42,243 nt of DNA, taken from the IMG/VR virus record IMGVR_UViG_3300029976_000110; one strand, written 5' to 3'. The stretch comes from a virus (Duplodnaviria > Heunggongvirae > Uroviricota > Caudoviricetes). The notes under the pieces are model-generated. The model saw only the letters and a program-made list of their open reading frames with translations. It made no database searches and had not been told where the DNA came from. Position numbers and translations under genes: made by a program. This document shows positions 17,042 to 42,243 of this stretch, in pieces (the stretch's first letter is position 1; every line of letters starts with the position of its first letter).

Positions 17042-17042
17042 T

Positions 17043-20000
17043 ATGAATAAATGTTTATTACCAAATTATAAAGAATCTGATTACTCAAAAGTAAGTTTAA
17101 AATTATAGTCAACTGATAATCTAGATTCTTTAGTAAAATAGATTTTGGACGGATTGGAGAAGCAAAAAAGCTTCTCCATAAGTCCAGAAATGTCAGTTAA
17201 TAGAGAAGAATTTAATGATAGCGTAAATCTTTTATTAGATAAGATTATACCCGATGCCGAAAAAGTTTATACCGGGTCTAATATATCTGAATTAAGAGAT
17301 ATACTCTATAATCATTTAACTGAGTTTAAGTATACTCCAGTAGATGAGGTTATTATGGCTGTAATATCTGGAACAGATTTAGTTACAGAAGGAGAACGAC
17401 AAGAAGTTAAGTTTTCATAGCTTGTAAAGGATATTCAAGGTACGTCAAATAGCTTTATTTATAATACTATGAGATAGAATTTTTCTAAAGATATGAAAAA
17501 CAGAACTATTATAAGTGATAATGGTTTAGTTACTTCCTATGAAGATATGAATGAATCTTTAGAAGCCTACTTATCTGAACAATATTTAATTTTAAAGAAA
17601 TATTTAACTTCTATTGATGAAAATAATCAGCTTTCTTCCATTATGGGAAATAGTTTATTTATTAATCATCAATTTAATCCTGCTTCTTCAGCTACCTTAC
17701 AGGCAATGTACAATCAAATAGTTAAATTAAAAAAGAATAAAACTTTTGATGATACTATTAAGCAAGATTGGGAAAATAAAATGGTGTCTAATTCTCGTGA
17801 AATATCATTTTATGATGCAGTTGATGCATATATGAAAATTGTCTATTTTGATGATTATTTATCTACAGTATTAGGTGGATATATTAAAATAGATCATAAA
17901 ATGGACACTCCTATTGAAGTTGATGAATATGGTAAAAATAAATATAAATATTCCTTTGTTTCTGGAAATATTAATGCTGTAAAAACTTGGGGAGTAGAAG
18001 AAAGAAATGCATTATCTGAAATGAGTAAATTCTCAAAAGTTTTAATTGAGAGTATTCCTCTTTATGATTTTAATTCTAAAGTACAGAGCTATGGATATAT
18101 GCAAGTAAAAGACTTTGTTAATACAATGTCTAAATTGTTTGATTTAATTCCTTAGCTTACAAGTAATTCAAATATTCTACATAATGCTTTAATAAACTTT
18201 AAAAACAGTCCTACTGCATCTATTTAGACAGTATTTGATGTAATCTTCCGTAATCAAGATATGCTTTCAACTCTAATATCAAAAGGATTTGATGAAAATT
18301 ACTTAAATTATTTATATTCAATATATAAAACAGTATTTAGTGGCAATAATTCCTGGTTAACTATTGAAAATAAATATAAATTAAAGCATGGAATCCCTAA
18401 TACATATTCTATAGTTGATACTATATTAGGAGAAATGAACGCAAATGTTTCAGCCAACTATGTAGAAACAGTGTATGAAAAGGGAGATACTATAACTAGA
18501 ATTAGGACAAAATATAATATTAACAGAACTATTTATCAAGTTATAGATAATGCTAATGAAATAATCAATCTTTCTACTTCCTTAAAATAGGACTTATTAG
18601 ACAAATATCAAATTTCTGGAGATTCTGATTATTATATTACGGTAGGATCTAATACCATTTTAATTAGTCCTAAAGGTTCTAATAATATATTAACTAAACC
18701 CTCTCAATCTTCAAATTCTATTGATATTTCTATTAATGGTTTAAATGATATTGCTAATTTTATCCCAGATATAAGCAAGGCCACAATAAGACAAAGAATA
18801 TTTAAAGGGTAGGCATCAGACGATGAAGTAAAATTACTTTCGGTACTTAAATTCATAGATGATATGTTAGGAACTAATTTTTCCAAAGATGAGCAAGGAT
18901 TATATTCTTTTTATTTATTGCAAAAATTCAATAAGAACAATCTAAGGGAAATGATTGCATCTGCATCAAGAGGTTTATTAGTTACAAAAATATATCATGG
19001 ATTTGAAACTACACTATAGGATGGAAAGAAATACTATAGAAATGAGTTAATTAAATTTTTACAAGAACATCAAACTGAATATATTAATAATAATTTAGCT
19101 AATTTACAGAATCGCAGAAATTATTTCAGAGATATAGAAAATGAAGGAAAGCATTTAATTGTAATTTCTGGAAATGAGAATTGGTTAACTGATTACTCTA
19201 AAGTACAAGCTATTTTACGAAATGAAACTTCACAATCTACAATTAATAGTTTAACAGGTAAAAAGTTTCCTAATTATACTCCTTCATTTTTAGGTTCTTC
19301 CTTATGGTATCAAATATAGCAAGCAGCTTTAACACATTCTTGTACCGAAAATCTATTATTTACTAAAAACATTGATAAAATCAAAACTGTTGGAATTAAT
19401 TCTGAAGTTAGAACACAATTTGGAGTTAGAAAGCAAATAAAGGATTTAAATAATGGAGAATTATTATATGACTCTATTGTTAATAAATTTATAATTCCAT
19501 CTTTAGAGGGTAAATATTATTCTCAACCTACGACATACTCTGATAAAACTAAATTTATTATATATGAGATAGCTTTAAGAGAGTTACTTGAGAATAAAGA
19601 TATTTATGATTAGAATATAGAAGAGTATGTTGAACAAAAAATAATGTCAACAATAGGACAGTTCTACAAGCAATCTTGGAATGAGATGTTATAGGATTAT
19701 ATTAAATTAATATCCTATTTAAATAACTCTGGCATTGAAACAGGTATAGGAATTACTCAGAGTGTAGTAAATTATGAAACTGTTACATCTATTAATACTC
19801 AACAACTTAATAATTGGTTAAAAACTCTTTCTGAAGAAAAATTGTTAAATTATGCAGAACAATATAATAAAAATAATCCTTCAGATCATTTAACATTATA
19901 TTCTGAAACTCACTACAGAGTTGGAAAAAATGGATTAACCTTAAATGAACTTACTAATTATTATGCTAATGTTCTATATGCACATCAGAATGTGTTACAT

Positions 20001-23000
20001 TAGAGATTATATCAAGAGAAAATAAATTTAGCTAATAATTTACTTAAATATAGAGTAAAATTTAAATATAATTCAAATCCAGATAGTACTGATGCAATTA
20101 CTCTTACTGCTAAAAGAGTATTAGGAACAGAAGTAAAAGATTGGTTATCTGGCAGCTATCTTGCTGTAGGTAGAATTACTAATATAGCCACGGGTGAATC
20201 AAGATTGATTTCATACGGATAGGTTTAGTTAGAAGAAAATGAAGTATTTGAATTAAATCCTATACTTAATTCATATTTTATGATTGATAATTTAGTAGGA
20301 AACAATTTAAGATATACTCTTACTGGTTCTGAACTTAATCATAAAATTAAATCTCTAAAGAAACTTAATTTAAATAAGGAATTTAAAAATTATATTCCAA
20401 GAATTAGAGAATTAATTGGAGATACTTCTAATTTAACATTTTATGACATACAAACTGCTATTTCTAATATGCAGGAAATAACTCCAGAAGATTCTGAGAT
20501 TATATCTTTATTTAATAAATTAATTTATAATTAGGAAAATTTAGGATAGAACGCTCAATTTAAGCGTAATGTTATAATTCCAGGTACAATTCGACCCTAC
20601 ACACCTAAATGTATTAATGGAATGTCTTCAAAAATGAATATTGCTGTGGTAAAGGATGTTGCAGCAAATATTTTTAATTTTGATGGAATTGCTACTACAG
20701 AGGATGCACACGATGGCTCTGCTTGGATTAATCCTATTGCTTCTTTATTAGAAAACTGGTCTCTACAAAGTTCAGAAGTTGGAACAGTAAAAAAACCTAT
20801 ACACCATTGGATGAATAATAAATATGGAACAGCAACTTTGTTAAAATATGCTGTTGATACTATGACTAATCAATGGATGAGATAGGCAGAAGGCAACAAA
20901 AATGGTATAGTAATTAGAAATCTAATAAAGAAAATGCTCGGAGTTAGGTGGAATGGCACTATTGATTTAATAAATAGTTGTCAATTTAGAGTAAAATCTA
21001 ATATAGACTTTAAAACTGACATTCTTGCAGGTAAATCTTTATATTATAAGGATGGCTTAAAACATTATCAAATATAGGATTTTGGTTTTGAAAATGGTGC
21101 TTATTATACAGTAGAAGCAGAAGTTAATATGGTTGGAGAAGTTCAATCTGAGCCTATAAAAGTATTCCATTATTTTGATGATGAGGGAAATCACTATACT
21201 GAATTTTCTGAAGGATTACATACTATAGATTCACTTTATGAATTACATACTGCTTTAGGAGGTTTGTTCTCAGAAAGTGAAGCTGATGGAACTTTACAAT
21301 ATTCCGAAGCATCAAATGAAGCTGTTGCTAGATTTTGTAATTATGTTGCTCTTAAAAAAGAGAGTACAAATATTAAAACTGATCCTATAGATCAAGATCA
21401 TTATTATTAGCCTTTAAAGGATAAAATGATACACATGGTTGCCAATAATAGTGCAGTCAAGAACGGGGCAGGAAATATTAATCAATCTAGACGTTTATAT
21501 AACAATGAAGAATTGTCTTATATGACAATTGGAACTGAATATTATGGAGTTCAATTAGATGCAGACCATACTGCGGATGAAGCAATGTTGACTGAGTTTT
21601 CACAGGTTATATCTTCTCTTGATTCTGGAGGACAATTACATGAGTATGTAAATGAAATTTATAAAGTTCTTGGATAGACAGCTTTATCTCTTTCACAAGT
21701 AGAACTAGATGCAGTTGCTGCATTTGAAGATAGTGGAAATAAAACTCATTTATATGAAGTAATAGGACGAACTATCGTTGACAACGTATTATCAAAAAAT
21801 TCTAATTCTGCAAGTCTAACTGAAAGTATATTGAACAATATTAAGAAAGAATTTGATTTACAAGCAGACCATATATTTGATAAAGCTAAAATACCTTTCT
21901 CTGATCCAAATATATATTCTTAGATTCTTCCTACTTTTGTTTCTATTATTAATAAAAAGTCTATTAAAAGACAATTCCCTGGATCTGGAACAGTTATGGT
22001 TCCAGGATATGATTTATCAATGATATATGAAATCAATGGGGAAACTTATTAGTATGAAGATATTTTAAAACGAGCTTATCAATGGGCGGTTTAGAATAAT
22101 ATAACTTCTACTAGTTAGGATTTATATACTCGAAATAATGAAATTGTGACTGCTTATTTAGATAGTATATAGGCTGAACAACCAAATATTGAAATCAATG
22201 ATATTATGCCTACAGATAATGTTTATTCTATCTATATAGATAGGGATGGAACTTAGATTAAAAAGCATAAATCATTAAATGAAATATTTGATTATTATAA
22301 TTATACTAATCCTACTTTTAATTTATTTGGAGTAGATGAAAATAATGTTGAATTTGAAGTATCTGATAATATATTAAATCTATATATTAAAGGGCATAAA
22401 GAATTAGGATCATTTTAGTTACTCTATAATGGAGATAATTATGTTATAGAATTTAAACATTCTTCAGATATTAGTCCAGAATAGTTACAAATTCTTTCTG
22501 ATGCATTAATTGCAGCAATTCCCTATAATGCTAAAGTATCATTATCTAATATTAGTACTTCGGATAATTTTGCTCTATGGTCTAGTATTTCAGCTGATAT
22601 GATAGACACTTCTAATTCTGAAAATATTTTATTAGATGAAACTGAAGTATCTATTCCAGTAAAATAGAAAACTTGGGGAAAAACAATTTTATCTAAAGAT
22701 GTAACTGTTCCAAGAAATCTTGCTCCAGCTAAAATATCTTATATTGTTAATGGAAAAAGAATGAGCATTTATCAACATTGGAGATTAAAGGGTCTATTCT
22801 TATCTTTACAACAATTACAAAATTCTGATATTCAAAATAAGGAAGAAGAAGAAAAGCGAATAAGAGAATATTATAATCCTCAAAAGGCTTTTGAAGAAAT
22901 TGCCAATAATCAATATATCTCAGAGGAAGAAACTAGAGCTGCCATAGCTGAACAAAGAGAACCAAATGCTATATAGGTAACTGATATATAGAATATACCT

Positions 23001-26000
23001 GCTGAAATGATTGTTTCAAATCTATTTGCTTCTAAATTTGGATTAAAACCAAATACTAGTATGGCAGATATAACCGAAAAATCTTTTATTAAAAGCAATA
23101 ATATAAGATCTTCCTCTAATTTTGATATAGTGTTTACTGGAGATACTGATTCTTATATTTCCTTTAAACCTTTATTTAATAATAGTTAGTGTAAAAAAAC
23201 TAGTTGGAGAAAAAATATAAGACCCTTTACAGAATATCCATCTGATGTAACCGATAAAAATATAGTTAATACAATTTATGCTGTTTCTGATAGTAATGTT
23301 AGATTGTTTGAAATAGGTAGAGAAATTAAAGCAACTAATGTTAAAATGGAGCGCGATGGAGATGGAAAAGCTTAGTTCTATGAAACAAATGAATCTGGAG
23401 AAATTATTTCTGAAAATGGAGCAAAGAAAAAAGCTAAAGGAACTTATAAACTCGCTAATGATGGTTCTATTATTCAAGTAATAGAATTTGTTACAAAATA
23501 TAGAGTTAAAGAGAAAGGTAAACGTTCAGTAGCATACGAAATTAATAAGGATGCTATCAAACGAGTATTTTTAAAGAGAAAATATTCTGAAGAGGAATTA
23601 TTATTAAGGAATCCAGACGGTTCTATACAAGTAGATGATCAAGGATTTCCCAAAAAGCTAACTGAAGAGTAGAAGTTTAACACCGAAGTAAATAATTTTA
23701 TTGGTAATTTATTAGGTAAAATTTATTCTAGTTCTAATCATGACGGAGTATAGTTAAATAATCAAATGAGTATGATTTCTGGAAATATTCTTAGTTCTTC
23801 TGCTTGGAATAGCTTTACTAGTTAGTTGTAGTATAATTCTAACTTATATAATTATCTTTAGAATTTAAAACCTCTTTTAACTGCTGGCAAAGAAAATTAC
23901 ACTGTTAATAAAAGACGAATGTCTCAAGCATTAACTAAATATAATGAAGATACAGCTAAAGAAAGATTTGTTTCTTTTTTGAAATCAAAATACTTTACTG
24001 TGGCTCGTATTCCGGCACAAACTTTACAATCTTTCATGTAGATGAAAGCTGTCGGGTTTACTCAAGTGCCAAACGCACAATGTTTTGTATCACATTGGCA
24101 GACATGGCTACAAGGGAGCGACTATAAACCTAAAAATCTTCCTTGCAGCTTAATTAAATAAAAAATCTTATTGTAGTCGTTAAACTTCGTGAATTGTCGG
24201 GAAATTCCTTAGAGCTTTTTCTACTAAACTAATTTAGTAATAAGTTAGTGGTGATAATTAACTATTATCAGTATAGTAACAAGGGAAAATATTGGATAAT
24301 CCGCAGCTAAATGTCCTAGATAAAATTTATGTCAAATAATCTGTAAGTTGACAAATTATTTATTAAATTTGTAGGATGAAAGTTCACAGACTATCCCATA
24401 AGGGAGTAGGAACTTTTATTTAATATCAAACTAAAAATATTAGATAAATGGTAAGAAGAATTTATTACTCAGCAAAAGCTGATTCCGAAGTGCGAAGCAT
24501 CTAGCAATAGATGAAGATATAGTCGGGCTTATATTGAAAGATATAAGAATAACTGGATATAGATAAGGCTTACATAATGGGTCTTAACTTTGATAACAAC
24601 GGTAAATATATTGGATGGAGTAATTTATTTGATTATTCTTCAATTGAAGCACTTTAGGCTTCAGAATATTTACCAATGCCAGAAGGAAAGCGATATAATT
24701 TTGATAAAAATGGAGTTGATATATCTACTTATGTTGATCAAATTATACAAGCTGAACAAAATAATGATAAGGTATCTCGTATAAAACTATATGTAGAACT
24801 TTTAAAGGCTATTAAAGATACTGATAAAGTTTCTTATAATGGTCAAAATAATGAAAATTTATAGCAGATATTAAAAAATATTAATCTACATCAATCAACT
24901 AAATTACCTTTATCTTTAACTGAAGGAGCTTAGAAGAATTTTATTTCTTCTCATATATAGAATACGATTCAAGATCTTCGTAATATGGTTAAGGCTTATG
25001 CTCCTATAGATATGGAGATATTTCGAGATGCTTCTTAGTTAAGTCCTAAAACTTCTGAAGCGAATCAATTAACATTATTAAATCCTGCTACCAAATTTAT
25101 AATGTAGTTTTAGAATATAACAGGTAAGAATGTAATTGGTATTGCGGCCAACGGAGAAAAAGGATCTTTTATGTGGCATTATTATCTAAATGATATGATG
25201 AAGCATCCAGAGAAGTATAATATTGAGAATGGGATGTTTGAATTTAAAACAAATAGAATATTAGGCAGGTCTTTAGGATCTCCTACTGCTCAAACTATTA
25301 CAATGTTACCAGACGTTAGGGTAGCAGCGGATTGGGCACTCAAACATCCTGATAAACCAATATATCGACTTACAGGTAATTTAGCAGTTGACTTAATGAT
25401 CAGTTAGGTGCTATCTGCGGCCACCGATTCTCGTATGCAGCAATAATTATTTTGTTATTTCAGAAATTAGTATTATATTTGTATATAAATTAAAATTATA
25501 TAGGTATGAATAAAATTTCTGAAGAAACTATTGGAAAAATTAAAGATCTTTATGATCAAGGCTTTAGCAATTAAAATGGCTAAAAGAAAAATGGAATATA
25601 GATTGTTCCAAACATAAGAACTCATCTAATTTCACTATCTATTTAAAAGAAGCCACTAGACTTACATTTGAACAATTAATTTTTCCATACATGCTGCCAT
25701 CTATGTATTATAAGCTAAAGTACATAGACACACTACAAGCATAGTCGGTGTAAAACTACGTGAACTCAGGAAAAACCCTTAGAACTTTAACTACCAAGCA
25801 TAAGTAGTAATACATTATGTGGCTTAATTAACTATTAAGGTATGGTAAAAAGATTAAAGATTGGGCAATCCTGATCCAAGCTTCCTAATGGAGGAAGAAG
25901 GAGCAACGACTATCGAAAACACATCTAAACAAGATGAAAGTGAGTAGAGTAGGGAAACTGAAGTGCGTAGACTTGTTTTTACAAGTATGATATAGTCTGA

Positions 26001-27943: not shown

Positions 27944-30258
27944 TGAGATGTTATTATGATTTTTTAATAGGAGATAATCAACAAGTTTCCATCCCCATTG
28001 ATAGTGAGGATGGAAACTTGATTTTAAACGATGAATTATTAACATCATTAGAAAATAATCCAGAGTTACGTCAACAAATCTCCGATTTATTGTATGAAGA
28101 ATTAAATAAATCTAAATCTGCAAAATCTATTACATTTAATGATTTAGTTAAAAAAGGAGCATTAATAGCTAATACTAATCTTGAATTTTTAAAAAGTGAA
28201 TATCCAAATGTTTTTCCAGAAAATGCAAAAGCAGAAGTACTTCTTGTTGAAAAACTAAAAGAATTTGGAACTCCTATTTCTGGTAGGATATTAAATTCAA
28301 AAGGAAAAGAAATATTTGTTATTGATGGTTCTGATAGAGATATATATAAATTAGCTAACTATTTAAAACTAAGAGAACAATACGAGATTGGAGCTGCTAA
28401 TTTTGAAGATAAAACAGGAATTATTAAGAAAATATTGAAAGATACTAAGTTTAAAGACTTATCCTCTTTATTAATAGATTTTAATAATAACGATAGTAAG
28501 TATTTAAATAAGTTTATTAAGAATTAGAGTTATTATAAAATCTTATATGATATATCAAGACAAGTATTAAATAAACCATCTTTAAGAAGCTTTAATAATC
28601 CTATATTAGATAATATCTATATTTATTTACAAAAACATGATGCTTGGAAGTTTAAAGATAATTCTTTTATAACTGATGGATCTAAGTTAAATATTGATTT
28701 TTTATATAATATATTAAAACAGTATAGCTCTGATTATAAGGATATAGATCTTAAAACTTTTAAAGCACAACTAAAGAATAAAGATTTCGTTACTTCCTTA
28801 TTTAATATGTTTCATGAATTAAATTCCGCATTTAATTATGAATTTATTAAAATTAAAGATGATGATATTTATGCTAAATCAGCTCCTTAGACAGTCTTTG
28901 AATAGTATGGTTGGACGTATGACACCATACAATCATTTGATTTTTAGGAATCTTATCGTGGATATTAGATTTATGCTAAAAATGATAAAGGAATAACTAA
29001 ATATTATACAACAAAAGAATCTCTTAATCAAAATAGTTTTGCAACTAAATCATTTGAGACTATTGATGAAATAAAAGTTTATATTGACGATAAAGTAAAT
29101 GAAACTAAGTTAGCTAAACATAGTTTACTAGATTTTAAGTTTGGATTAAATGATAATACTATAACAACTAAAGATAAATTAATTGTTGGAAGTATAATTG
29201 GAACATTAGATATTCCTCTTAAAAAAGTTAGAGCATTAACTCTATTTCCAATTAATGAATAGCAATTATTAGAGGATAAAGCTGTAAAGAGTGTAAAAGA
29301 CTTTGCTGACGTAGTTAATTCTTGGAACATTGAAACTTCTTTGAAAAATGAAATAATCTCTGAAATTAATACTCCAGAAAAAATAACAATATTCTTATAT
29401 AAAGCTCAAGAAGAATTTAAGGGCAGAGATCGTAATGATTCAGAAAAAATGCGATTAATCCTTAGATAGATTCAAGAAGCAGGAACTAAATATTACTATA
29501 TTGATGAAGAAATTAGTCAAGGAAAATATAGAATAATTCCAACAGAACCAAACTCTTTAGAAAATTATCATAAAGAAGGTAAGAATTTACCTACTATTAA
29601 ATTTTTAAATGTGTTAGCACAAACTCTTGAAACACAAATTCCTGGAATTAAAGTTAATATTGAAACTTCTAATAACATAAAAGAATTATTCGGAGATATT
29701 GATACTAATACTACAAGAGCTTTTATCCGTGATGGACAAATTTATTTAAATAGTACTTTGTGTAAAGCTACGGATTTATTACATGAATATACTCATTTAA
29801 TCCTTGGAATGTTAAGAGCTGATGAAGCTACACGATCTAATTATGAAAGTCTCTTGCTAAGAACAATGTCTTCTAAGACTGCAGAAGTAACTAACGCATT
29901 AAATAAAGTATTAGAAGCCTACCCAAATATAAGTCAAATGGACGCATACGAGGAAGTGTTTGCTAATTTATTTAGCAGGTATCTTGTTGATAATAATATT
30001 AAAATATTTTAGAATAATGAATCTGAATTAAAGTCATTAACTGAAACAATATTTGGACAAACTATTGACACTCCAGAGGATATGAGAGATTTCTATACAG
30101 GTAGTATTAAATCAATATTTTCGAGATTTAATTAGGATATTGCTACACTGTTACAACAAAAAAATCTTAGTTGGGAGGATAGTAAAACATATCGTTAGTT
30201 ATCTAATTATATTTCAGATTAGATTAGTAAAGGAAAAATCAAAGAAAATTGTATATGA
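27943..30258 (+). CDS. giant-operon protein C, 771 aa, with a zincin-like metalloprotease (HExxH) domain (TAG=Gln)
   Basis: TAATG overlap with the RNAP stop; track ORFs 27943 and 29611 are in frame; RAFIRDGQIYLN...LLHEYTHL (29782-29796)...YEEVFA; ends KENCI-TGA. Confidence 0.82.
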
Positions 30259-33200
30259 TAAAATGTACTTATAAAATAGGGAATAAAACATTTAATAATT
30301 ATACTGAATTACTGAATGCTTTACAAGATCTTCCAGAATTAAGTAATTTTAATGATGTAGTATATAGTAAATAGCTTAAGCAACAAACTTAGATAGATTT
30401 AATAGATAAAATTAAACATGATTATTCTATTAAAGTTAATTCTACTTCTTTAGGTTTTTTAAATGGAGAGCCTGCTACAGAAAGTGGAATGAATATTCTT
30501 CAATACATTGATAGTGGTTAGTTTATTGTTAATGGACATAGACCAGTTACTCCTTATAATGAAGAGGATTATATTAAAGAAAAGACTGAGAAACTAAAAG
30601 AATCTGGGATGTCTGAAGAAGAAGCAATTAATCAAGTACAAGAAGAACTGAAACACAATCAGAAAATTGCAGAAGATGCCAAGTTATTTCATCAAGTAAT
30701 TAATGATCCAAGTATTGCTGATCCCAATTTTACACAAGAAGAGTTTGTAAATAGATATTCTTCGTTATTTTCAGTATTTGGAAATAGTGAATCAATTCTA
30801 TCTAATTTATATAACAGGTTAAAGCAAATATATATTGAATATAAAGGTAATATTCCAAATTCAATTGTTAAAAGAAATGTCAATTTAACTGCAAAAACTA
30901 AAGATGGTGTTGAAATCTTAGGTCATATTGATCAGTTAATTATTGGTGAAGATGGATCTTTACATTTATTCTTATTTAAGACTACTAGCGATTCTAGAAA
31001 GGATTGGGTGGGAGTAAAACGAGAAAAATACGATTTTTAGTTGTCATTTTTAAAATAGATGTTAAAGGCTAATGGTATTGATGTTAGTAATATAACTCTA
31101 TCTATCATTCCAATTTGGATGCAATATAATTCAGATTATTCTGATCTTACTGGTGTACAAGTAAATAATCCAGATGAAAGGAGTTCTTCTAAAAAGAATC
31201 AATATGTGTTTGAAAAGTATGATAAATATACTCGAATAACTATTCCTAATGTCAGTAAAATGACTAAAGTACCTTCTACTACTTTATCTAAAGCTGACGA
31301 AATATTTGATGCAGTATTTCCAGATTTAAATGTAAAAGAAACTGGTATTTCTGAATCTGCAAGAATTTGGATTGATAAAGCACCAAGTGCCGATCCGAAT
31401 GGAACAGCTTAGTTAGTAATTAAGGAAGTTAATACTGATCACCGTTATGACGTAATCATTAATGAAACAACTTATAATATAAAATCTGGAAAATCTAAAA
31501 ACGTAAACTCAGAAATTATTAAATTAGTTTCTGAACATATATCTGAATTAGAAGATAATAAAGGATATTCAATTCAAAAACTTAAAGATGCTATAAAATC
31601 TAGTTATAAAAAAGGATTTTTAGATCTTTCTTCAATTAAAGGATTAAAAGGTTCAGAAGTTAAATTAAGGGGATTATTATACAAGTATTTACACTATACT
31701 AAAGATGATTTAGATAATAAAATCTATGAATGGGTATTAGAAGATTAGTTAGTTGATAGTAATATATTGATTTTTAGAAATAAAAAATCTAATGTATTAG
31801 ATTTTATTGATTTAACTGCATTTAATATAAATGCTAATGCTCATTTAACTAAAGGAGAGGGTATTTTAGGTGCTTATGAATATCAAGATTCTGTTGGTTT
31901 AAAGGCAGATTATGGTAATATTGAGGCTGTAAGAACAATGGTATTGATTAATGAATTAATTCCAAATTTAAAAGATGTTGCATTAGGTACAATGCATATA
32001 TTAAGTTCTACTAGTAGTACTAATTATCGTTCTTATAATATAGGTGATTTTAATCAAAAATATTTTAGAAAAATTATTGATACTGTTAGTCATGAAAATT
32101 CTGATTTAAGTATCAGTAATAATTTTGGATCTATTGAATTGGAAAATCCAATTGATAGTATTCTTTAGAGTTTATTATCAATCTTAGATGGTAAAAACAG
32201 TTCTCAAAAAGAGCGTATAATGGATCTAGGATTTGAAGAACTGACCGAATTAGAACCAGAAGAACATGAAAATATTGTAAATGCTTTATATAATATTATA
32301 TAGAACATATACAATGAATATCCAAATTTACAAGACCCAGAAGAAGTAAAAAATCTGTTATATGATTCTACTACTTCTTAGTCTGATATAGCTAAACTAC
32401 TTGAATTAATAACTCGAATTTATACTTCTTATACAGGAGAAAGTCCTGTTTATTTAACAGAATTTAGTAAAATAGAAAGAAATGCTTTTACAGCTACAAC
32501 AGTATCAGACTCTAATGTAAAAACTATAGTTGATAATTTATAGATTACCCACGATGCTATAGCAAGAGAGTTCTTAGAGAAATATGATCAAATTAATGAT
32601 CCCATAATGACTTATTATCAAGAAATAGGTTATACTTCTGCTAATAATATGCTTTTAGGAAATCAAGCATCTCAATTTAAAAATCTATTTGAAAGAGATC
32701 TTGATACTAACTAGAATACAATGATATTTAAGAATCCTTACGATAGGACTAATAATTTAACTGAATCAGAACGTAAACTTCTAAAAAAAGTATTATATAA
32801 TATTGCTTATATACATAGTAATGGAAATTTACCTTTCTTCTCTGGAGAAGATTCTAAAATCGAAGCATATATTAAATCTAATCCTCAATATTTATGGGTT
32901 CCTTTAATACGAGCTTCTTCAGCAACAGCATTACAAAGTAAAGATGCTTGGAAAGCTAAATTTAAAAATGGTTACAAGCGTTTTAAAAGAGCTATTGATC
33001 GTTATGATGAATTTATAAATGGAGTTACGGAAGAAGAGCGTAAAGAAATTTTATCGCAAAGCGATAACTTTTATATGATGTAGGCTCATAATCCTTTTGA
33101 TTTAAGTATTCCTAATAGTAGAAATACCAATATTATTGAGGAAAAACGCCGAAATATGATTGAGAAGTACGGTCCAGAGTTTTTTGAAACTAATGTAGAA

Positions 33201-34814
33201 AATATTATGAAAGAGTTTTTAGTTCAACAAATTGGTACATACCAATTTAATAAGTTATTGGTTGGAACTAAAGCTTTTATGTTACAATTAGCATTAAGAG
33301 GAGAAGAATCTGGAAATTCTAAAGTAATGTAGGATGAACTTGAATGGCTTCAAAATTATCTAAGAGTAAATGTTTTTAAAGAGTCTATTATGTCTAAGGA
33401 TGAATAGAAGATTATAGGAACATTAGTACCTGTAAGAAAAATAGTTTCTCATATGTTAATTGGTGGTAATATTGTAGGTGCATTTCGTGATGTATTTGAA
33501 GGTGTACAGCAGAACTTTATTCGTTCAGTATTGCAATATCAAACAGATTTAAAACCAAAATATATTACTCAAGCTTTAGCCTATGTTTCATCTCATGGAA
33601 CATCTAATGCAATGTCTGTAAATCTATTAAGTAAATTATGTTTGATGTATCGTCTTTCTAATACTGATGTTGGTAGAATTGCAGAACGTGCAAAAACAGG
33701 TAGAAATGGTTTACTGAACATTGAAAACGGATTATATTTCACACTTCGAGGTCCAGACTTTCTTAATCGAATGACATTATTCGTTGCTCGTTGTATGCAA
33801 GATGGGGTTTGGGATGCTTATAGTCTTGATGATAATGGAAAATTAAAATATGACTGGAAGAAAGATGCTAGATTTACTTAGTATGCATTAGGAAATAATA
33901 ATCACCCAGACTATAATAAACAAAGAGCTTTATATCTTTCCAAAATTAGGGAGTATAATCAAGAACATCCTAATCCAGAAGAGAAAATTCCTTTTGATGG
34001 AGACCTTCCAGCACCTTATTCTGATAGAGAAATATTAAATATTAGAAATTTAGGTGATAATATATATGGTTCTTATGATAAAAGTAAGAAAGCTATGATG
34101 GAAAACTATTCATGGTGTATGATATTTGGTATGTTTACAACTTGGATGAATGGTATAGTTAATAATTACTTTATGAAATCATAGCGTAATGGAGCATTTG
34201 GTTATAAACGAGTTTAGGCTCACGATACTCAAGGAAGGGCACTTTATTTTGATAGTTTAAATAATATAACTACCGAAGTAACTAATACCCCAGTATATGA
34301 AGATGAGCCTATTGTAGTTTAGGGTATTTTCCCAACTTTAAAGACTTTATATAAAATTCTAAGGTCTGAGGATAATATACCAGAAGGATTGAAACGTATT
34401 AAAGAATATTTAAAAGCAGATTAGCATGAACGAGCTAATATGTTAAAGCTCAGTTCAGATGCTTTAATGACATTGTTATACTGGTTATTATTCTCTCAAC
34501 TCTTAGATCCTGCTTATAAAAATTATAAGAAGAAAATGATAGATAATCCTGTTGTTGCTAATGCATTGGTTGAAGTGTTATATAAATCTACTTCTAGATC
34601 TCATGATTAGTTCAAAGGACCTTTAAATATCATAGAATTTCTTGGAACTAATATGAATCCGCCTATTTATTCACAGCCTACACAATTAATGGTAGATATG
34701 GGAAAATCTATTTTAGGTGATAAAGAATGGTCGTATACACTAATAAATACTAATGGTATTACACGCTCATTTAAAGATACTGGTAAAGCATATATAAAAT
34801 CCAAATAGCAATGA
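30255..34814 (+). CDS. giant crAss-like virion protein D, ~1519 aa, with a degenerate PD-(D/E)xK-like domain (TAG=Gln)
   Basis: ATGA overlap with the upstream stop; MIKCTYKIG...; track ORFs 30609, 31059, 31767, 32721 and 33453 share the frame; GHIDQLIIGEDGSLHLFLFKT at ~30921-30983; ends KSK[Q]Q-TGA. Confidence 0.82.
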
Positions 34815-34993
34815 CGTATTCTGAAATAAAAGAAATAGTTAAGAAAGGTAACTTAGCTAAATTACCTTATTTTGTGGGATATTTTCGATGGAATTATAAC
34901 ATAGACGATTTAGAATTTTTTAACAAAGATTTTATATGCCCTGCTAAACAACTAAATGTTTAGAATAGAGAAGACTTTTATTATATAATATGA
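34811..34993 (+). CDS. small hypothetical protein, 60 aa (TAG=Gln)
   Basis: ATGA overlap; MTYSEIKEIVKKGNLAKLPYFVGYFRWNY...NV[Q]NREDFYYII-TGA; immediately followed by a terminator-like hairpin. Confidence 0.65.
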
Positions 34994-34996
34994 ATA

Positions 34997-35051
34997 AAAC
35001 CCTTATTAGTAATTCAGAGAAATCTGTTTTATTAGTAAGGGTTTAATTTTT
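34997..35051 (+). terminator. probable terminator of the + strand operon
   Basis: Imperfect stem aaacccttattagtaa / ttattagtaaggggttt followed by aatttttg. Confidence 0.5.
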
Positions 35052-35101
35052 GTTAATAGTAAAAATTCAATTTATATATTTATAAAAAATGTGTATATTT
35101 A

Positions 35102-35423
35102 CGTTGTCTTAGTGCTTCTTTGCAGATCAGTTCTAGCACATAATAAATATTAGAACCGTGGGTGTAATCCCTTGTCAAGTCTAATTATGCCGTAGTTAAT
35201 CCCGCTCTGTCTCAACCTCGACAACGGGTGCTGGTAAAAATCGCGGCGTGTCCAGTATCACCGAGTGTACACTCGAAATTAGATGCGACGACTCCTTAGT
35301 AGATGTTTTTAACATCCAACGAAAATAGTACCTAAGAAGGGGAAGGAGTTCAAACTGATATATCAGTATGCTTTTTATCGGAAGTAGGATATACCAGTAT
35401 AGGAGGTTCTATATCCTATACTG
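35102..35423. ncRNA. putative structured non-coding RNA of unknown family
   Basis: No credible ORF and GC-richer than its flanks. Helices: cgttgtc (35102-08)/gacaacg (35220-26); ggtg-ctgg/ccag-cacc (35227-61); palindrome cgagtgtacactcg (35262-75); actcctt (35291-97)/aaggagt (35343-49); palindrome actgatatatcagt (35354-67); cagtatagga/tcctatactg (35395-423). Confidence 0.4.
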
Positions 35424-35427
35424 AAAT

Positions 35428-35474
35428 AAAAAAAAAATAACCCGAGCAACGTGTTTTCGTTACTCGGGTTTATT
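35428..35474 (-). terminator. intrinsic terminator of the - strand repL operon (possibly bidirectional)
   Basis: Stem taacccgagcaacg / cgttactcgggtt preceded on the + strand by a 10-A run (U-tract on the - strand), 3 nt past the stop at 35478. Confidence 0.8.
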
Positions 35475-35477
35475 GTT

Positions 35478-36035
35478 TTATAATACATATTGATATTTTT
35501 CTTTAATGTGTTTATTTTCTTCCATTAAAAATTTTACAGATTTCGTTAAATCTTGTACTTTTTCTTTTAGTTGGGTGTGCTCTTGCTTAATTTTAATATT
35601 TTCTTGTTTTAATTCATCTATTATATTTGACTATTTCTCTAGTATTAACGTAGTACGCTCATAGATATTAATCTATGTTTGTAATGCGTGAATTGAATAA
35701 TACATATACTCTGTTATCTTAGATATTTGTTCTTTTAAATCACATTTAGTTCCATATTGTTCTAAATTCTAAATTTTAGCGCAAATTGAACCAATTTCAA
35801 ATAACTTAAAATTATTCCAAACTTCTAATACTTTTGGATTATTATAGAACCATTCTGTCTAATACTTGTAGTCTTTTAATAACTTATGTAAAGTAGTTTC
35901 GTTCTACTTCGTTCCTTCCATTGTGTCTAAAACTTCAAAACTCGGATTAGTAATTTTATAAGCTTTAATACGCTATTTAAGATTATCTGTAAATCCGATT
36001 TTCAAGTAATCTCCAGATTCAATTAGATATAGCAT
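35478..36035 (-). CDS. T5orf172/MUG113-type GIY-YIG-like domain protein with a C-terminal coiled coil, 185 aa (TAG=Gln)
   Basis: MLYLIESGDYLKIGFTDNLK[Q]RIKAYKITNPSFEVLDTMEGTK[Q]NETTLHKLLKDYKY[Q]TEWF...; 6 in-frame TAG; ends with TAA; missed by the ORF track. Confidence 0.78.
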
Positions 36036-36037
36036 AA

Positions 36038-36484
36038 TTATTCTCCTATTTTAAAAGTAATTTGTATATCTTTATCTTGTAATAGCCTTTCTCTTACTGC
36101 AATATCCCCCTTCCAAAAAATTTGTGGGTTAATTATAAACTCTCCCTTTTCTCCAGAGATTAACCCTTCTTTCTTTAGAGTAGCAAGATTATTGGTAATG
36201 GTGTTTACACATATATTCATATCCTTAGCCATATTTTCTCTAGCTTTTGTAGTTAAAGATATCATACCTGTATTAAATTCAGCATGTTCACACATCCATT
36301 GCAATATGTTTTTTGCATTTAATTTAAGATTATGTTGAGGTGCTACAAAATCTATAAATGTCATGTAAAATGCACTAGCTTTAATCTTTCTTCTAATAGT
36401 CTTAGAATAGTCAATAGTGACCAATTCTCCTGTTTCAGGGTCTAAATACTCCCTTTGCGTTGTTTGTATTACGTTTTCTTTCAT
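36038..36484 (-). CDS. RepL-like winged-helix DNA-binding / plasmid-type replication protein, 148 aa
   Basis: YLDPETGE N-terminus, HTH-like segment (ENMAKDMNICVNTITNNLATLKKEGLI) and C-terminal FIINPQIFWKG resemble the RepL family; no in-frame TAG. Confidence 0.65.
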   Translation of the reverse strand: MKENVIQTTQREYLDPETGELVTIDYSKTIRRKIKASAFYMTFIDFVAPQHNLKLNAKNILQWMCEHAEFNTGMISLTTKARENMAKDMNICVNTITNNLATLKKEGLISGEKGEFIINPQIFWKGDIAVRERLLQDKDIQITFKIGE

Positions 36485-36508
36485 AATTGATATATTTAAT
36501 GTTCAACG

Positions 36509-36540
36509 CAAATATAGTAAATTAAAATTCAACTTCCAAA
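36509..36540 (-). promoter_or_regulatory. Bacteroidota sigma-A-type promoter for the repL-like operon
   Basis: On the - strand: TTTG (36540-37), 20-nt spacer, TATATTTG (36516-09), 24 nt upstream of ATG 36484. Confidence 0.75.
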
Positions 36541-36560
36541 TTAAAATTTAGAAAACTCAC

Positions 36561-36663
36561 AAATTTGGGGAGCAAATTCAAATTTGGTAAATTAATTTCT
36601 AAGTTTGGATATAAATGCCTTAAATTCGATATAAGTACTTCTCAATTCGGAGAAATCCTTGTA
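36561..36663. repeat. degenerate ~21-bp periodic iteron-like array
   Basis: Cores aaatttgg (36561), aaatttgg (36580), aagtttgg (36601), aaattcga (36622) and caattcgg (36643), spaced 19, 21, 21 and 21 bp. Confidence 0.4.
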
Positions 36664-36884
36664 ACTAATTGAAAATCAGAAACTTATATATTTTCAAGTA
36701 TATTGTCTTATTTGCAAAATCCTACATGAATCAGTCTATAAACTATACTTACTCAGAACTATACTTAAAAGACCATTTAAGACCTCTAACGTTCTCTACA
36801 ATCCACTAAAAAGTATCGGATGATCAACTTATTCAGAATGACTATTAAAACCGTTAGAAAGTCTTATTTTGTCTCAAAAAATAT

Positions 36885-36926
36885 AAAAAAAAAATGGGCA
36901 GAAACGTAAAAACGCTCCTGCCCATT
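36885..36926 (-). terminator. intrinsic terminator of the - strand metabolic gene operon
   Basis: Stem atgggcag / ctgcccat (with inner cgt/acg), preceded on the + strand by an A-run, ~50 nt past the stop at 36978. Confidence 0.75.
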
Positions 36927-36977
36927 AAAATATATATTAATAACTCTTATGTGTAATCACTTACTATTCTGTTATCT

Positions 36978-37295
36978 TTAATCAGATTTCTCATTTAAAA
37001 CTTCAAATTTTAATTGATTTCCATCACAGATGACTGAAATACATTTATCATTTGAATTAAATACAATATACTTTCTATCACAAACTTTAAATTCTATTCC
37101 TTCACAGGTCTCTAAAATTAACTCAGAAAGTAAAAATCCATTTATAGGAGATTGTATAACAATACTCTCATTTATTCCGCTTGATATTGCAAAGATAACA
37201 TTATTAATTCCTGCTTTGAAATACATTAGTCCAGAATTAAAATCAGAATTTACGTGCTTTAACGGATTTCCAACTGTCTTATTCTCTCCTGACAT
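36978..37295 (-). CDS. hypothetical protein, 105 aa
   Basis: Open frame from ATG to TAA in a co-directional gene run, overlapping the upstream gene end; no recognisable motif. Confidence 0.6.
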   Translation of the reverse strand: MSGENKTVGNPLKHVNSDFNSGLMYFKAGINNVIFAISSGINESIVIQSPINGFLLSELILETCEGIEFKVCDRKYIVFNSNDKCISVICDGNQLKFEVLNEKSD

Positions 37296-40825: not shown

Positions 40826-40843
40826 AATTTTTATTGTTTATAG

Positions 40844-41428
40844 TTACACGAAGTCAAGCATAAGGACTTCATTCTCTCCGTCAAGTATCTCCTTAAACTC
40901 CTCCTTGAACTGGTTGTTGTGCTTTTTGGCATAGAGGTAAGGGATGCAATGTATAAAGCGTTTCCAGCCAAGCACGGAAGAATACTTATGCGTTATGTTG
41001 AGATGGACATCACCTTGCACGACCTCCTTGTAATCCCACTTTTGGTAAGCCCCACAGAAGTGCAGCTTCGGGGCAGGGTTTTTAAGGCCACTGGCCCAAG
41101 ACGTGAACCTTATCAGGATTTCATCAGAACGCTTGGGCTTCTTGTTATATTCAAGCATCACGCGAAAGTAGATGTCCACATCATGCCTTTGTGAGTAAGA
41201 CTGCAAAAGTATGAGTATGAAGTTTAGGCTTGGCGATCTGTACGAAGCGAGGCCATGCGCGAAGCAGTATTCTCCATTAGGCTTCATCTTGATTCTGAGG
41301 TCAAAGTAGCGCACGCCAGCCTCAAGCTGCTCAGACAACCACTTGGACTGGCATTTTGAGAACACGTTGAACGGTTTTAGATACCATACACAAGGATAGC
41401 TTGTAAGTGAGTTGTGACTTCCTAACAT
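40844..41428 (-). CDS. PI-PLC X-domain-like phosphodiesterase, 194 aa
   Basis: GSHNS, CQSKWLSEQLEAGVRYFDLRI and FAHG match the PI-PLC catalytic X-domain pattern with both catalytic His. Confidence 0.8.
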   Translation of the reverse strand: MLGSHNSLTSYPCVWYLKPFNVFSKCQSKWLSEQLEAGVRYFDLRIKMKPNGEYCFAHGLASYRSPSLNFILILLQSYSQRHDVDIYFRVMLEYNKKPKRSDEILIRFTSWASGLKNPAPKLHFCGAYQKWDYKEVVQGDVHLNITHKYSSVLGWKRFIHCIPYLYAKKHNNQFKEEFKEILDGENEVLMLDFV

Positions 41429-42054
41429 TACTCTTCACCTCCTTTCGGCGACTCAACATCATTGTTCAGACTGGCATCATCCTCTCCACGCCTTATGAGA
41501 ATATAGTCTGCCCAGATGCCAATGAACTGATTGCCACAATAAACGGCAAGCTCCTCTGTCTTCAGAGCAAGGCGAGCCGAGATGTTCGCGTTCGAGACCG
41601 ACCAACCGATGCCCGAGCGCGCAAACGCGAGACCGCAATACGAACCGGAGGTCGAGCAACCGCCGAACAGCCACAGCCGTTTCTTCTCATCCTCAACCAT
41701 ATTGCCTATCTCTTCCTGCGTATATAGACAGAACCACGGATACCAGCGTTCCTCATCTTCCGTGAACTGCGGTGTCCAGCCCTCATTGAGGGCGGCAACG
41801 ATAATGCGGAGCTTGAGGTACGCTATTAAGTCTGCCGTCCATACGCATGTCTCCAATCCACTTGCACAGTTGATGTATTGTGCCACGAGGATATTCTTTT
41901 CTCCAAGCTCCTCGCAAGCGTCCTCAAACGTCTTGACACGCTCCGTTACGTCCTTTGGTTTCTGCGGTGCTTCGTCAACCAACGTTAGCACTCCGTTCAC
42001 CCATTCGGCTTTCTTGCCGTCGGGAATTTCAACTGTAACTGTCTTCTGTTTCAT
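41428..42054 (-). CDS. hypothetical Bacteroidota phage/prophage-type protein, 208 aa
   Basis: Long ORF whose stop overlaps the next start (TAATG); motifs VKTFEDAC, LKLRIIVAALNEGW and RWYPWF; function unknown. Confidence 0.8.
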   Translation of the reverse strand: MKQKTVTVEIPDGKKAEWVNGVLTLVDEAPQKPKDVTERVKTFEDACEELGEKNILVAQYINCASGLETCVWTADLIAYLKLRIIVAALNEGWTPQFTEDEERWYPWFCLYTQEEIGNMVEDEKKRLWLFGGCSTSGSYCGLAFARSGIGWSVSNANISARLALKTEELAVYCGNQFIGIWADYILIRRGEDDASLNNDVESPKGGEE

Positions 42055-42061
42055 ATCTTCT

Positions 42062-42243
42062 TTATTTCACTTTGTTTGTCCTTACCTTGTCTATGCAGTC
42101 GCAAACCCACTCAACAAAGTAGGCATAATGCTCATCCTCGTCAAGATTGAATGTGATGCTCAAGTCTTGGAAGATTTTGTTTGCAACATGAATAGCCTCG
42201 TGTATAACCTGTGAGAGCTTTTCTATGCGCCTAATGTAAACAA
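42062..42243 (-). CDS. 3' end of an HExxH-motif (zincin-like) protein, partial
   Basis: The - strand reads VYIRRIEKLSQVIHEAIHVANKIFQDLSITFNLDEDEHYAYFVEWVCDCIDKVRTNKVK-TAA (stop at 42062-64); the start lies beyond the window. Confidence 0.65.
   Translation of the reverse strand, partial: VYIRRIEKLSQVIHEAIHVANKIFQDLSITFNLDEDEHYAYFVEWVCDCIDKVRTNKVK

What the first reader, a model, noticed from the sequence alone, without database searches (positions are those of the whole stretch)
35060..35423. Unexplained ~320-nt multi-helix non-coding element between two convergent terminators
Seen: in a very AT-rich genome this GC-richer, ORF-free stretch has a long-range 7-bp helix closing 35102-35226, several hairpins, two perfect 14-bp palindromes and mutually exclusive pairings (gtgct/agcac versus gttcta/tagaac; taggatata/tatatccta versus cagtatagga/tcctatactg). 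A near-consensus TTTA-N19-TATATTTA promoter (35071-35101) sits just before it on the + strand. I could not match it to tRNA, tmRNA, RNase P, SRP or hammerhead patterns. Inference: a separately transcribed structured RNA of unknown family, or a DNA-level cruciform/packaging site.
Basis: partly seen in the sequence, partly recalled or inferred. Interest (0 to 1): 0.7.

Follow-up and report, generated by a model that had tools for sequence, protein, structure and literature searches.

The report
New pseudoknotted RNA gene in gut phages
The GC-rich gap between the two terminators is a self-contained gene for a folded, non-protein-coding RNA of about 300 bases that matches no catalogued RNA family, recurs in five lineages of large crAss-like gut phages at different places in their genomes, and keeps its many helices and pseudoknots through matching double mutations; what it does is still unknown.

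Summary
The DNA-cruciform/packaging alternative is not.

Window 35110-35414 (+ strand) has homologs at 72-85% identity in four other lineages of 130-190 kb phage genomes, plus four near-identical contigs.

On a MAFFT alignment not fitted to any structure:
- 70 proposed pairs in 13 helices are 96.8% paired, and 22 pairs change on both sides.
- 0 of 500 shuffles reach these values, and slid controls give 38-45% paired.
- Two pseudoknots covary. The strongest joins a hairpin loop (35214-35219) to the 3' tail (35403-35408) and has a different but complementary sequence in every lineage.

G·U pairs and a private downstream terminator in every lineage fix the strand as +. A TAnnTTTG-type -7 box sits at the same offset in three lineages.

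The unit is an insertion cassette. Sister genomes lack it cleanly, and only 1 of 50 related genomes searched has it.

Rfam gives no match at E up to 10, although the phage's own group I introns are found by the same search.

Function is unknown and no transcript could be tested. This scan had not noted the family on other DNA.

The parts
34994..35423 (.). Inserted cassette relative to the ancestral junction: an extra terminator, a promoter and the RNA gene.
   Evidence: L055/L056 have the same late-operon / T5orf172 / RepL junction with only about 52 nt and one terminator. That terminator, with its A-run, is homologous to window 35424-35475. L008, L017, L009 and L021 also have no insert at this junction.
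34995..35047 (+). Intrinsic terminator of the + strand late operon (context; not part of the RNA).
   Evidence: Inverted repeat I1 followed by a T-run. It follows the small ORF 34811-34993, which is homologous to L008 5494-5676.
35071..35101 (+). Candidate host-type promoter: TTTA at 35071-35074 and the -7 box TATATTTA at 35094-35101.
   Evidence: Alone it is at chance level. However, a TAnnTTTG box lies at the same offset (16-20 nt before the first conserved helix) in L062 (TATATTTG) and the L063 group (TATTTTTG). The transcription start, about 35105-35110, is inferred.
35110..35414 (+). Conserved core of the structured RNA.
   Evidence: Homologs: L058 (E 1.6e-42) and L060-L067 (nhmmer E 1e-21 to 4e-54). 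Core identity is 72-85% between lineages.
35112..35156 (+). 5' H-type pseudoknot: helix H1a (35112-35116 with 35135-35139) and helix P2 (35130-35134 with 35152-35156). An invariant A-rich loop spans 35140-35151.
   Evidence: H1a has 2 of 5 pairs changed on both sides (C-G to U-A; U-A to A-U). P2 has 1 of 5 (G-C to U-A). Cells are 98-100% paired.
35160..35171 (+). Hairpin P3 (35160-35162 with 35169-35171).
   Evidence: The stem reads GGG/CCC, GCG/CGC or GCC/GGC in different lineages. 2 of 3 pairs covary and 100% of cells are paired.
35174..35289 (+). Central multi-branch domain. P4 35174-35176/35287-35289; P5 35179-35186/35277-35284; P8 35189-35193/35243-35247; P6 35201-35204/35225-35228 plus 35208-35211/35220-35223; P9 35248-35250/35259-35261; P10 35262-35266/35271-35275 (this is palindrome 1).
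   Evidence: Pair probabilities are 0.6-0.97 on the + strand. On the CM-fitted alignment A5, 95.9% of cells are paired, 14 of 40 pairs change on both sides, 0 of 500 shuffles match, and slid controls give 34-50%. P10 covaries at 5 of 5 pairs and P9 at 2 of 3 on the unfitted alignment.
35214..35408 (+). Long-range pseudoknot PK2: the P6 hairpin loop 35214-35219 pairs with the 3' tail 35403-35408.
   Evidence: The sequence differs but is complementary in all five lineages: AACCUC/GAGGUU, GGCCC/GGGCC, GACCCC/GGGGUC, AACUCC/GGAGUU, ACCGCUC/GAGCGGU (read). 4 of 6 pairs change on both sides and 96.3% of cells are paired.
35229..35257 (+). Candidate pseudoknot PK3: UGCUGG 35229-35234 with the P9 loop CCAGUA 35252-35257.
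   Evidence: 98% of cells are paired but the sequence is almost invariant, so there is no covariation either way. This pairing is inferred.
35290..35350 (+). 3' domain: P11 35290-35297/35343-35350 encloses hairpin P12 35302-35307/35311-35316 and hairpin P13 35331-35333/35339-35341. The invariant stretch GAAAAUAGUA lies between P12 and P13.
   Evidence: P11 has one pair U-A to C-G. P13 has C-G, G·U and G-C. P12 has a different sequence in every lineage, and RNAfold draws the P12 hairpin in six of the seven sequences (four of the five lineages). In L058 the MFE differs, though the matching arms UAAAUAC/GUAUUUA can be read from its sequence.
35354..35398 (+). P14 (35354-35360 with 35392-35398) enclosing a lineage-specific variable insert. 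Palindrome 2 (35354-35367) is P14's 5' strand paired to a duplicated copy of its 3' strand.
   Evidence: The closing pair is G-C in other lineages and A-U in the window. The inserts differ in length and sequence. L052 has deleted exactly 35364-35394, which leaves a minimal P14 hairpin.
35440..35478 (+). Intrinsic terminator that ends the RNA (stem 35440-35469, then a U-rich tract). It is bidirectional and also ends the - strand T5orf172 gene.
   Evidence: All lineages have a non-homologous terminator 15-45 nt after the conserved tail. In L050-L053 this hairpin is replaced by an unrelated one while the RNA stays about 99% identical.

Best explanation
Window about 35105-35475 (+ strand) is an autonomous gene for a structured non-coding RNA: a conserved core of roughly 300 nt, or about 370 nt with leader and terminator. 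It belongs to a family that is not in Rfam.

Shown:
- The family exists in five lineages of large phage genomes.
- Its fold is kept by compensatory changes. It has 13 or more helices, an H-type pseudoknot at the 5' end, and a pseudoknot that docks the 3' tail into the loop of hairpin P6.
- The RNA strand is +.
- The unit is a discrete cassette that is present or absent between otherwise collinear genomes and sits at three different genomic positions. It behaves like a phage 'moron' that carries an RNA in place of a protein gene.

Inferred:
- Host RNA polymerase starts just after the TAnnTTT(G/A) -7 box at 35094-35101 and stops at the terminator at 35440-35478.
- The RNA acts in trans as a compact, tertiary-folded molecule. 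Most likely it binds a protein or another cellular or phage component (an RNP partner or a decoy). Catalysis (a ribozyme) is the main alternative mode.

I put about 0.9 on 'real, conserved, + strand structured RNA gene of a new family', about 0.75 on 'autonomous and trans-acting, not a cis leader', and no more than 0.3 on any one molecular role. The confidence given for this explanation (0.8) refers to the identity and the autonomous-gene reading, not to a specific molecular role.
For: Homologs:
- L058 matches window 35107-35352 at 76% identity, E 1.6e-42.
- Eight IMG/VR loci were found with a conserved-block pattern, with nhmmer E 1e-21 to 4e-54.
- L114 is a further copy.
- Four contigs carry the same junction at about 99% identity.

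Structure:
- On the unfitted MAFFT alignment A3, 96.8% of 627 cells are paired, 22 of 70 pairs change on both sides, 0 of 500 shuffles reach this, and slid controls give 38-45% paired with at most 7 such pairs.
- The central domain on A5 gives 95.9% paired, 14 of 40 pairs, 0 of 500.
- PK2 is complementary with a different sequence in each lineage.

Strand:
- Conserved G·U pairs (columns 297/358, 341/347, 363/471, 184/290, 190/284) would be A·C mismatches on the other strand.
- Every lineage has its own terminator on this strand.
- A -7 box lies at the same offset in three lineages.

Cassette behaviour:
- L068 differs from L069 (ligase DNA about 88% identical) by a 568-nt unit inserted exactly between the stop codon of one gene and the ATG of the next.
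- L055/L056 show the window's junction without the unit.
- Only 1 of 50 further related genomes carries it, and 0 of the 25 that are at least 90% complete.

Not a riboswitch platform:
- The terminator is swapped between the window and L050-L053 without any change in the RNA.
- The window copy has no downstream gene.

Not coding. Not a known family.
Against:
- There are only five independent lineages, so single-pair statistics are thin. No R-scape test could be run.
- The promoter is weak evidence in this window, is absent in L058 and is displaced in L060.
- In three lineages the unit sits directly before a DNA ligase gene on the same strand. That is also what a cis-acting leader would look like.
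- PK3 and the role of the second CCAGCAU copy are unresolved.
- Nothing ties the RNA to a partner. No neighbouring protein is shared across all contexts.
Confidence: 0.8

Rival explanations
1. The RNA is a cis-acting leader for the gene downstream: a riboswitch, an attenuator, or a put/EAR-like processive antiterminator. Ancestrally that gene would be the ATP-dependent DNA ligase, and the window copy would be a displaced orphan.
For: In L058, L060 and L062 the unit lies directly upstream of the ligase on the same strand, in the order promoter, RNA, terminator, gene. In L068 it is inserted between two genes that are translationally coupled in L069, so the ligase must now be reached through or past the RNA's terminator.
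Against: The window copy faces a convergent junction with no gene downstream. In the L063 group the next gene is unrelated and about 400 nt away. Terminators are non-homologous between lineages and are even swapped between near-identical copies without any change in the RNA, so no conserved antiterminator/terminator competition exists. The three ligase contexts share synteny by descent, so they count as one placement, not three.
Confidence: 0.12
2. It is a DNA-level element (a cruciform, a packaging or origin site, or an operator array for the neighbouring RepL-like or T5orf172 proteins), as in the reader's second option.
For: It holds two perfect 14-bp palindromes, the only G/C-containing ones in 42 kb. 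A 13-nt motif is repeated at 31-nt spacing with an inverted third copy. A RepL-like initiator gene lies nearby.
Against: Palindrome 1 is not a palindrome in L058 or the other lineages, yet it still forms a hairpin through double changes, 5 of 5 pairs. Palindrome 2 is a window-lineage duplication that one natural variant removes. Conserved wobble pairs and pseudoknots are strand-specific RNA features. Homologs lie far from any RepL or T5orf172 gene.
Confidence: 0.03
3. It is non-functional filler: a recombination scar, or the decayed remnant of a foreign gene or intron brought in with the RepL-T5orf172 module.
For: It is lineage-specific at this junction. Its composition is foreign to the phage. 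A homing-endonuclease-like gene is adjacent. Folding energy is unremarkable.
Against: The core is 72-85% identical across lineages whose neighbouring proteins are 40-60% identical. Base pairing is maintained by 22 double changes. Each copy has its own terminator. No protein similarity appears in any frame. There is no group I signal, although the same search finds the phage's true introns.
Confidence: 0.02

Closest known systems
Large, complex-folded orphan ncRNAs carried by phages and bacteria (GOLLD, ROOL, HEARO/omega-RNA, raiA, OLE; Rfam families; my own knowledge of the class)
   Same: It is long for a bacterial or phage ncRNA and has many helices and pseudoknots. Its junctions are strongly conserved and its hairpin tips are variable. 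It is phage-borne, sporadically distributed, and was found by comparative analysis before any function is known.
   Different: No Rfam model matches the window copy or three homologs, even at lenient thresholds. It is smaller (about 300 nt) than GOLLD, ROOL or OLE. It is not next to an IscB/TnpB-type gene or to tRNAs. So far its hosts are only large crAss-like phages.
Phage 'morons': autonomous promoter-gene-terminator units inserted between conserved genes (own knowledge)
   Same: It is a clean presence/absence insertion between adjacent genes (L068 against L069). It has its own promoter box and its own terminator, occupies different positions in different genomes, and is dispensable in most relatives.
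   Different: The cargo is a structured RNA, not a protein gene. The flanks of the cassette differ between lineages. Only the RNA, and in three of the five lineages a -7 promoter box at the same offset, is shared.
Group I introns of this same phage (window 24122-24546 and 25635-26019; Rfam RF00028)
   Same: The size is similar (300-400 nt). Both are pseudoknotted, GC-richer than their surroundings, mobile in crAss-like phages, and in the window the element lies beside a homing-endonuclease-like gene.
   Different: There is no RF00028 signal at E up to 10, whereas the true introns score E 3e-6 and 2e-10 in the same kind of search. The element interrupts no gene: the flanking ORFs are complete when compared with relatives. 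It has its own promoter and terminator.
H-type pseudoknots with an A-rich third loop (for example the telomerase RNA, SAM-II or preQ1-II folds; own knowledge, a resemblance only)
   Same: The 5' module has two 5-bp helices that abut each other and an invariant 12-nt A-rich loop (35140-35151) placed to lie along the first helix.
   Different: This is a resemblance recalled from memory, not a test. Here the module is one part of a 300-nt RNA. No ligand or function is implied.

Membership tests
Any Rfam 15 family | A covariance-model match at or near the family's gathering score. | tested here: not met
   There were no gathering-level hits in the window. Nothing relevant appeared at E up to 10 on 34900-35600; the best hits only touch the terminator. 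There were no hits on the elements in five homolog loci at gathering level, nor at E up to 1 on three of them.
Group I intron (RF00028) | A conserved P3-P8 core recognised by the covariance model. | tested here: not met
   There is no RF00028 hit at E up to 10. The positive control worked: the window's two introns score 33.6 and 47.4 bits in the same mode.
Group I intron (RF00028) | It interrupts a gene whose exons rejoin into an intact reading frame. | tested here: not met
   The small ORF 34811-34993 and the RepL and T5orf172 genes are complete relative to homologs. In L068 the unit sits between a stop codon and the next ATG.
tRNA / tmRNA | A cloverleaf or a tRNA-like domain plus tag ORF, as detected by ARAGORN. 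| tested here: not met
   ARAGORN finds no tRNA or tmRNA gene in the whole window. The T-arm-like 3' hairpin of the window copy is not conserved.
Riboswitch / transcription attenuator | It lies in the 5' leader of a regulated gene, with an expression platform (terminator) whose strands compete with the conserved fold. | tested here: not met
   The window copy has no downstream gene. Terminators are non-homologous across lineages and are swapped between 99%-identical copies. Three lineages do lie upstream of a ligase, so a cis role there is not excluded.
Phage moron (autonomous inserted transcription unit) | It is present or absent between otherwise collinear genes. | tested here: met
   Compare L068 with L069 and the window with L055/L056 and L008. 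Only 1 of 50 related genomes carries it.
Phage moron (autonomous inserted transcription unit) | It has its own promoter and its own terminator. | tested here: inconclusive
   A terminator is present in all six forms examined. A -7 box lies at a conserved offset in three of five lineages.
Structured RNA in general | Base pairs are maintained by compensatory substitutions beyond what relatedness gives. | tested here: met
   (unfitted alignment): 22 of 70 pairs change on both sides, 96.8% of cells are paired, 0 of 500 shuffles match, and slid controls give 38-45%. One search covers the central domain. Caveats: only five lineages, and no R-scape test.

The most novel reading that the evidence does not exclude
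The RNA is a new functional class, not just another orphan. One possibility is a new ribozyme: its size, its nested pseudoknots and its invariant junction nucleotides are what large ribozymes look like. The other is a phage-carried RNA that binds and neutralises, or hijacks, a host factor (for example a defence or RNA-processing protein), spread horizontally among crAss-like gut phages as an RNA-only accessory cassette.
Probability: 0.3. Interest if true: 0.9.

Novelty: new variant of a known kind. Interest (0 to 1): 0.72.

Why it matters
crAss-like phages are among the most abundant viruses of the human and animal gut, and almost nothing is known about their RNA biology beyond introns and tRNAs.

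New RNA families of about 300 nt with several covariation-supported pseudoknots are rare. Earlier ones turned out to be ribozymes, guide or scaffold RNAs, or large assemblies.

This one comes with useful handles:
- It is a discrete accessory cassette.
- Natural 'knock-outs' exist: sister genomes without it.
- A natural minimal variant exists (the 31-nt deletion).
- Five sequence-diverged versions fold alike.

Its structure and function can therefore be tested directly by probing, cryo-EM, pull-downs and comparison of phages with and without it.

Tried and rejected
Searches that found nothing:
- The first homolog hunts all failed because they used the window-specific loop or palindromes, or relatives that were too distant. 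These were blastn against phages and plasmids; exact patterns in viral, metagenome and genome collections; whole genomes of five relatives; and a single-sequence CM. G001, the nearest record, does not cover this junction.
- The protein route through the tail gene gave only relatives at 59% identity or less, all without the element. The T5orf172 protein in viral contigs gave nothing.
- The family was finally reached through RepL homologs and their contigs.

Public reads:
- Sequencing runs hold only 2-3 of 37 sampled words.

Leads that went nowhere:
- A pseudogene: no Pfam or PHROG similarity in any frame.
- A MITE: no terminal inverted repeats.
- Motifs of the 3' region elsewhere in the window: none.
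- A shared neighbouring protein: none.
- Linkage to RepL: no.

Structure alternatives:
- RNAalifold proposed a long 5'/3' closing helix and a local UGCUGG/CCAGCA helix. The closing helix has no double changes and clashes with the covarying H1a and P14, so I did not adopt it.
- MFE z-scores cannot discriminate here.

Literature: searches found no description of such an RNA. I could not check the unnamed candidates of PMC8040213 by sequence.

Full report
**Context**

The window is 29.7% G+C. Its long + strand genes are open only if TAG is read as sense: ORFs of 2956, 2372 and 1521 codons appear. The - strand genes from 36038 onward use the standard code. Earlier notes of this scan call it a crAss-like gut phage, which I did not re-test. 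Relatives found through its proteins are 175-183 kb genomes.

The finding lies where the + strand late operon meets the - strand block. The late operon here is the tail-like gene 30249-34814 plus a small ORF 34811-34993. The - strand block begins with a T5orf172/GIY-YIG-like ORF at 35478-36035, which holds six in-frame TAG, and a RepL-like gene at 36038-36484.

**Checking the observation**

All listed features are present.

- The stretch has no usable reading frame, and its translated pieces match nothing in Pfam or PHROGs.
- It is a G+C island of 0.41-0.46.
- It is bracketed by a terminator at 34995-35047 and a strong bidirectional one at 35440-35469.
- Of the eight perfect 14-bp palindromes in 42 kb, two are here, and they are the only ones that contain G/C.

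Two things are not significant on their own.

- The loose promoter pattern is at chance level: 12 found against 9.8 expected.
- The folding energy is ordinary: z = -2.2 against shuffles and -0.8 against GC-matched windows of the same genome. The energy test is powerless here, because the phage's two true group I introns score between -1.1 and +0.1.

**Known families**

Rfam gives nothing at gathering level and nothing relevant at E up to 10. The same lenient mode does find the window's two group I introns, at E 2.8e-6 and 2e-10. ARAGORN finds no tRNA or tmRNA.

**Is it conserved?**

At first it looked like an orphan. DNA searches and exact patterns in every collection failed. Three complete related genomes lack it.

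Synteny showed why.

- Relatives at 59% tail-protein identity or less go from the late operon through one terminator straight into - strand genes.
- A RepL-T5orf172 module 78% identical in DNA (L024) is followed by one terminator and no element.
- L055/L056, with 64% RepL identity, have exactly the window's junction but with a gap of about 52 nt. Their single terminator, A-run included, is homologous to the window's terminator 2.

So window 34994-35423 is an insertion.

**The family**

A RepL protein 98% identical to the window's led to four JGI contigs (L050-L053) that carry the whole junction at 96-98% identity. Within the element they differ only as follows:

- 35251 T to C, which falls in a loop.
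- 35074 A/G.
- A 1-nt indel.
- In L052, a 31-nt deletion (35364-35394) between two 13-nt direct repeats.

Their terminator 2 is a different, unrelated hairpin.

A RepL homolog at 60% identity (L058) then gave the first diverged copy. Window 35107-35352 matches L058 5297-5542 at 76% identity, E 1.6e-42, in another genomic context.

Conserved blocks from that pair retrieved eight IMG/VR loci from phage contigs of up to 187 kb, with nhmmer E 1e-21 to 4e-54. One more copy is L114.

There are five lineages: the window clade; L062/L114; L060; the L063 group; and L058. Their cores are 72-85% identical. None hits Rfam.

**Structure**

I derived helices from the pairwise and multiple alignments, from pair probabilities and from per-sequence folds. 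I then counted them on alignments.

- On the MAFFT alignment A3, which was not fitted to any structure, 70 pairs in 13 helices are 96.8% paired and 22 pairs change on both sides.
- 0 of 500 shuffles reach the observed pairing, covariation score or count of pairs changed on both sides.
- Sliding the partners by 1-3 columns drops pairing to 38-45%, with at most 7 such pairs.
- The central domain on a CM-fitted alignment gives 95.9% paired, 14 of 40 pairs, 0 of 500.

The fold, in window coordinates:

- A 5' pseudoknot: H1a 35112-35116/35135-35139 and P2 35130-35134/35152-35156. Both covary and they share no base.
- Hairpin P3.
- A multi-branch domain closed by P4 and P5 that contains P8, P6, P9 and P10.
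- A domain closed by P11 that contains P12 and P13.
- A stem P14 that encloses a variable insert.
- A 3' tail.

The most telling element is PK2. The loop of P6 (35214-35219) pairs with the tail (35403-35408), with a different but complementary sequence in each of the five lineages.

It covaries at all five pairs, but it is not a palindrome elsewhere.

Palindrome 2 is P14's 5' strand paired with a duplicated copy of its 3' strand. The L052 deletion removes the duplication and leaves a minimal P14.

- The 7-bp long-range helix is 63.5% paired with no covariation, and it competes with the invariant P6.
- The 10-bp 3' hairpin is 52% paired.
- The taggatata alternative lies in the piece that L052 has deleted.

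**Strand and transcription unit**

Several conserved G·U pairs exist only on the + strand. All six forms have an intrinsic terminator on that strand 15-45 nt after the conserved tail, each with an unrelated sequence.

A TAnnTTTG-type -7 box lies 16-20 nt before the first helix in the window (TATATTTA), in L062 (TATATTTG) and in the L063 group (TATTTTTG). It is displaced in L060 and absent in L058.

**Distribution and mobility**

In L058, L060 and L062 the unit lies just upstream of an ATP-dependent DNA ligase, on the same strand, within a shared syntenic block. In the L063 group it lies between a ferritin-like gene and an unknown gene. In the window it lies at the convergent junction.

L069, whose ligase DNA is about 88% identical to L068's, lacks a 568-nt unit of promoter region, RNA and terminator. 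In L068 that unit is inserted exactly between a stop codon and the next ATG.

A covariance model of the central domain finds the RNA in only 1 of 50 further related genomes, and in 0 of the 25 that are at least 90% complete. It is therefore a sporadic accessory cassette: a 'moron' whose cargo is an RNA.

**What it does**

This is unknown. A riboswitch-type leader is unlikely for three reasons. The terminator is interchangeable. The window copy has no downstream gene. The three ligase placements are one placement by descent.

A DNA site is excluded by the strand-specific covariation. Junk is excluded by the conservation.

A compact fold with several pseudoknots and invariant A-rich junctions argues for a trans-acting RNA. 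Examples of those junctions are 35140-35151 and the GAAAAUAGUA stretch at about 35322-35331. Such an RNA would bind a partner or catalyse a reaction.

No partner gene is shared across contexts. Earlier notes place Ro60-like and RNA-repair genes elsewhere in this phage. I could not test any link, because the genome outside the window is not held.

**Verdict**

This is a real, conserved, + strand structured RNA gene of a family not in Rfam. It is carried as a mobile cassette by large crAss-like phages, and its function is open.

I rate the family as new, but the kind (an orphan complex-folded phage ncRNA) as known. Hence 'new variant of a known kind'. There is a substantial chance that the function, once found, will be new.

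Noticed in passing
window 36631-37070 (- strand): The non-coding region upstream of the RepL-like gene is the strongest folding outlier of the whole window: z = -4.4 against GC-matched windows, on the - strand only. L050 and L053 differ completely from the window beyond about 36754, so a recombination breakpoint lies here.
   Followed up: partly
window 35432-35511 compared with L050-L053: The bidirectional terminator and the last codons of the T5orf172 gene are replaced by an unrelated hairpin in four contigs that are otherwise about 99% identical. This is a small cassette swap of a terminator.
   Followed up: yes
window 35478-36035 (- strand): The T5orf172/MUG113 (GIY-YIG-like) ORF has six in-frame TAG on a strand whose other genes avoid TAG. 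Homology to the L024 module stops in mid-gene at about 35806, so the C-terminal half has been exchanged. L055/L056 carry the same RepL-T5orf172 pair, also with in-frame TAG codons.
   Followed up: partly
window 36486-36543: The RepL promoter region, which holds a strict TTTG-N-TAnnTTTG match at 36540 on the - strand, resembles a non-coding stretch of small Bacteroides fragilis plasmids at 81% over 58 nt (E 4e-3), and also a stretch of G001. This is consistent with a Bacteroidales host.
   Followed up: no
window 40826-42200: This is a sharp G+C island (up to 0.57 against 0.30). It covers two - strand ORFs, 40844-41428 (a weak PI-PLC-X-like hit) and 41428-42054 (no family). It looks like recently acquired foreign DNA.
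   Followed up: no
window 17000-17400 (+ strand): This is the second-strongest folding outlier on the + strand (z = -3.5). It lies at the junction of the two giant genes 8171-17041 and 17043-24161.
   Followed up: no
L060 3906-4150 (- strand): A group I intron scores above the Rfam gathering threshold (70 bits) in one of the phage genomes that carry the RNA.
   Followed up: no
window 35229-35234, 35252-35258 and 35394-35400: One invariant UGCUGG faces two conserved copies of CCAG(C/U)AU, one in the P9 loop and one forming the P14 3' strand. This could be a tertiary contact or an alternative pairing. There is no variation to decide between them.
   Followed up: partly
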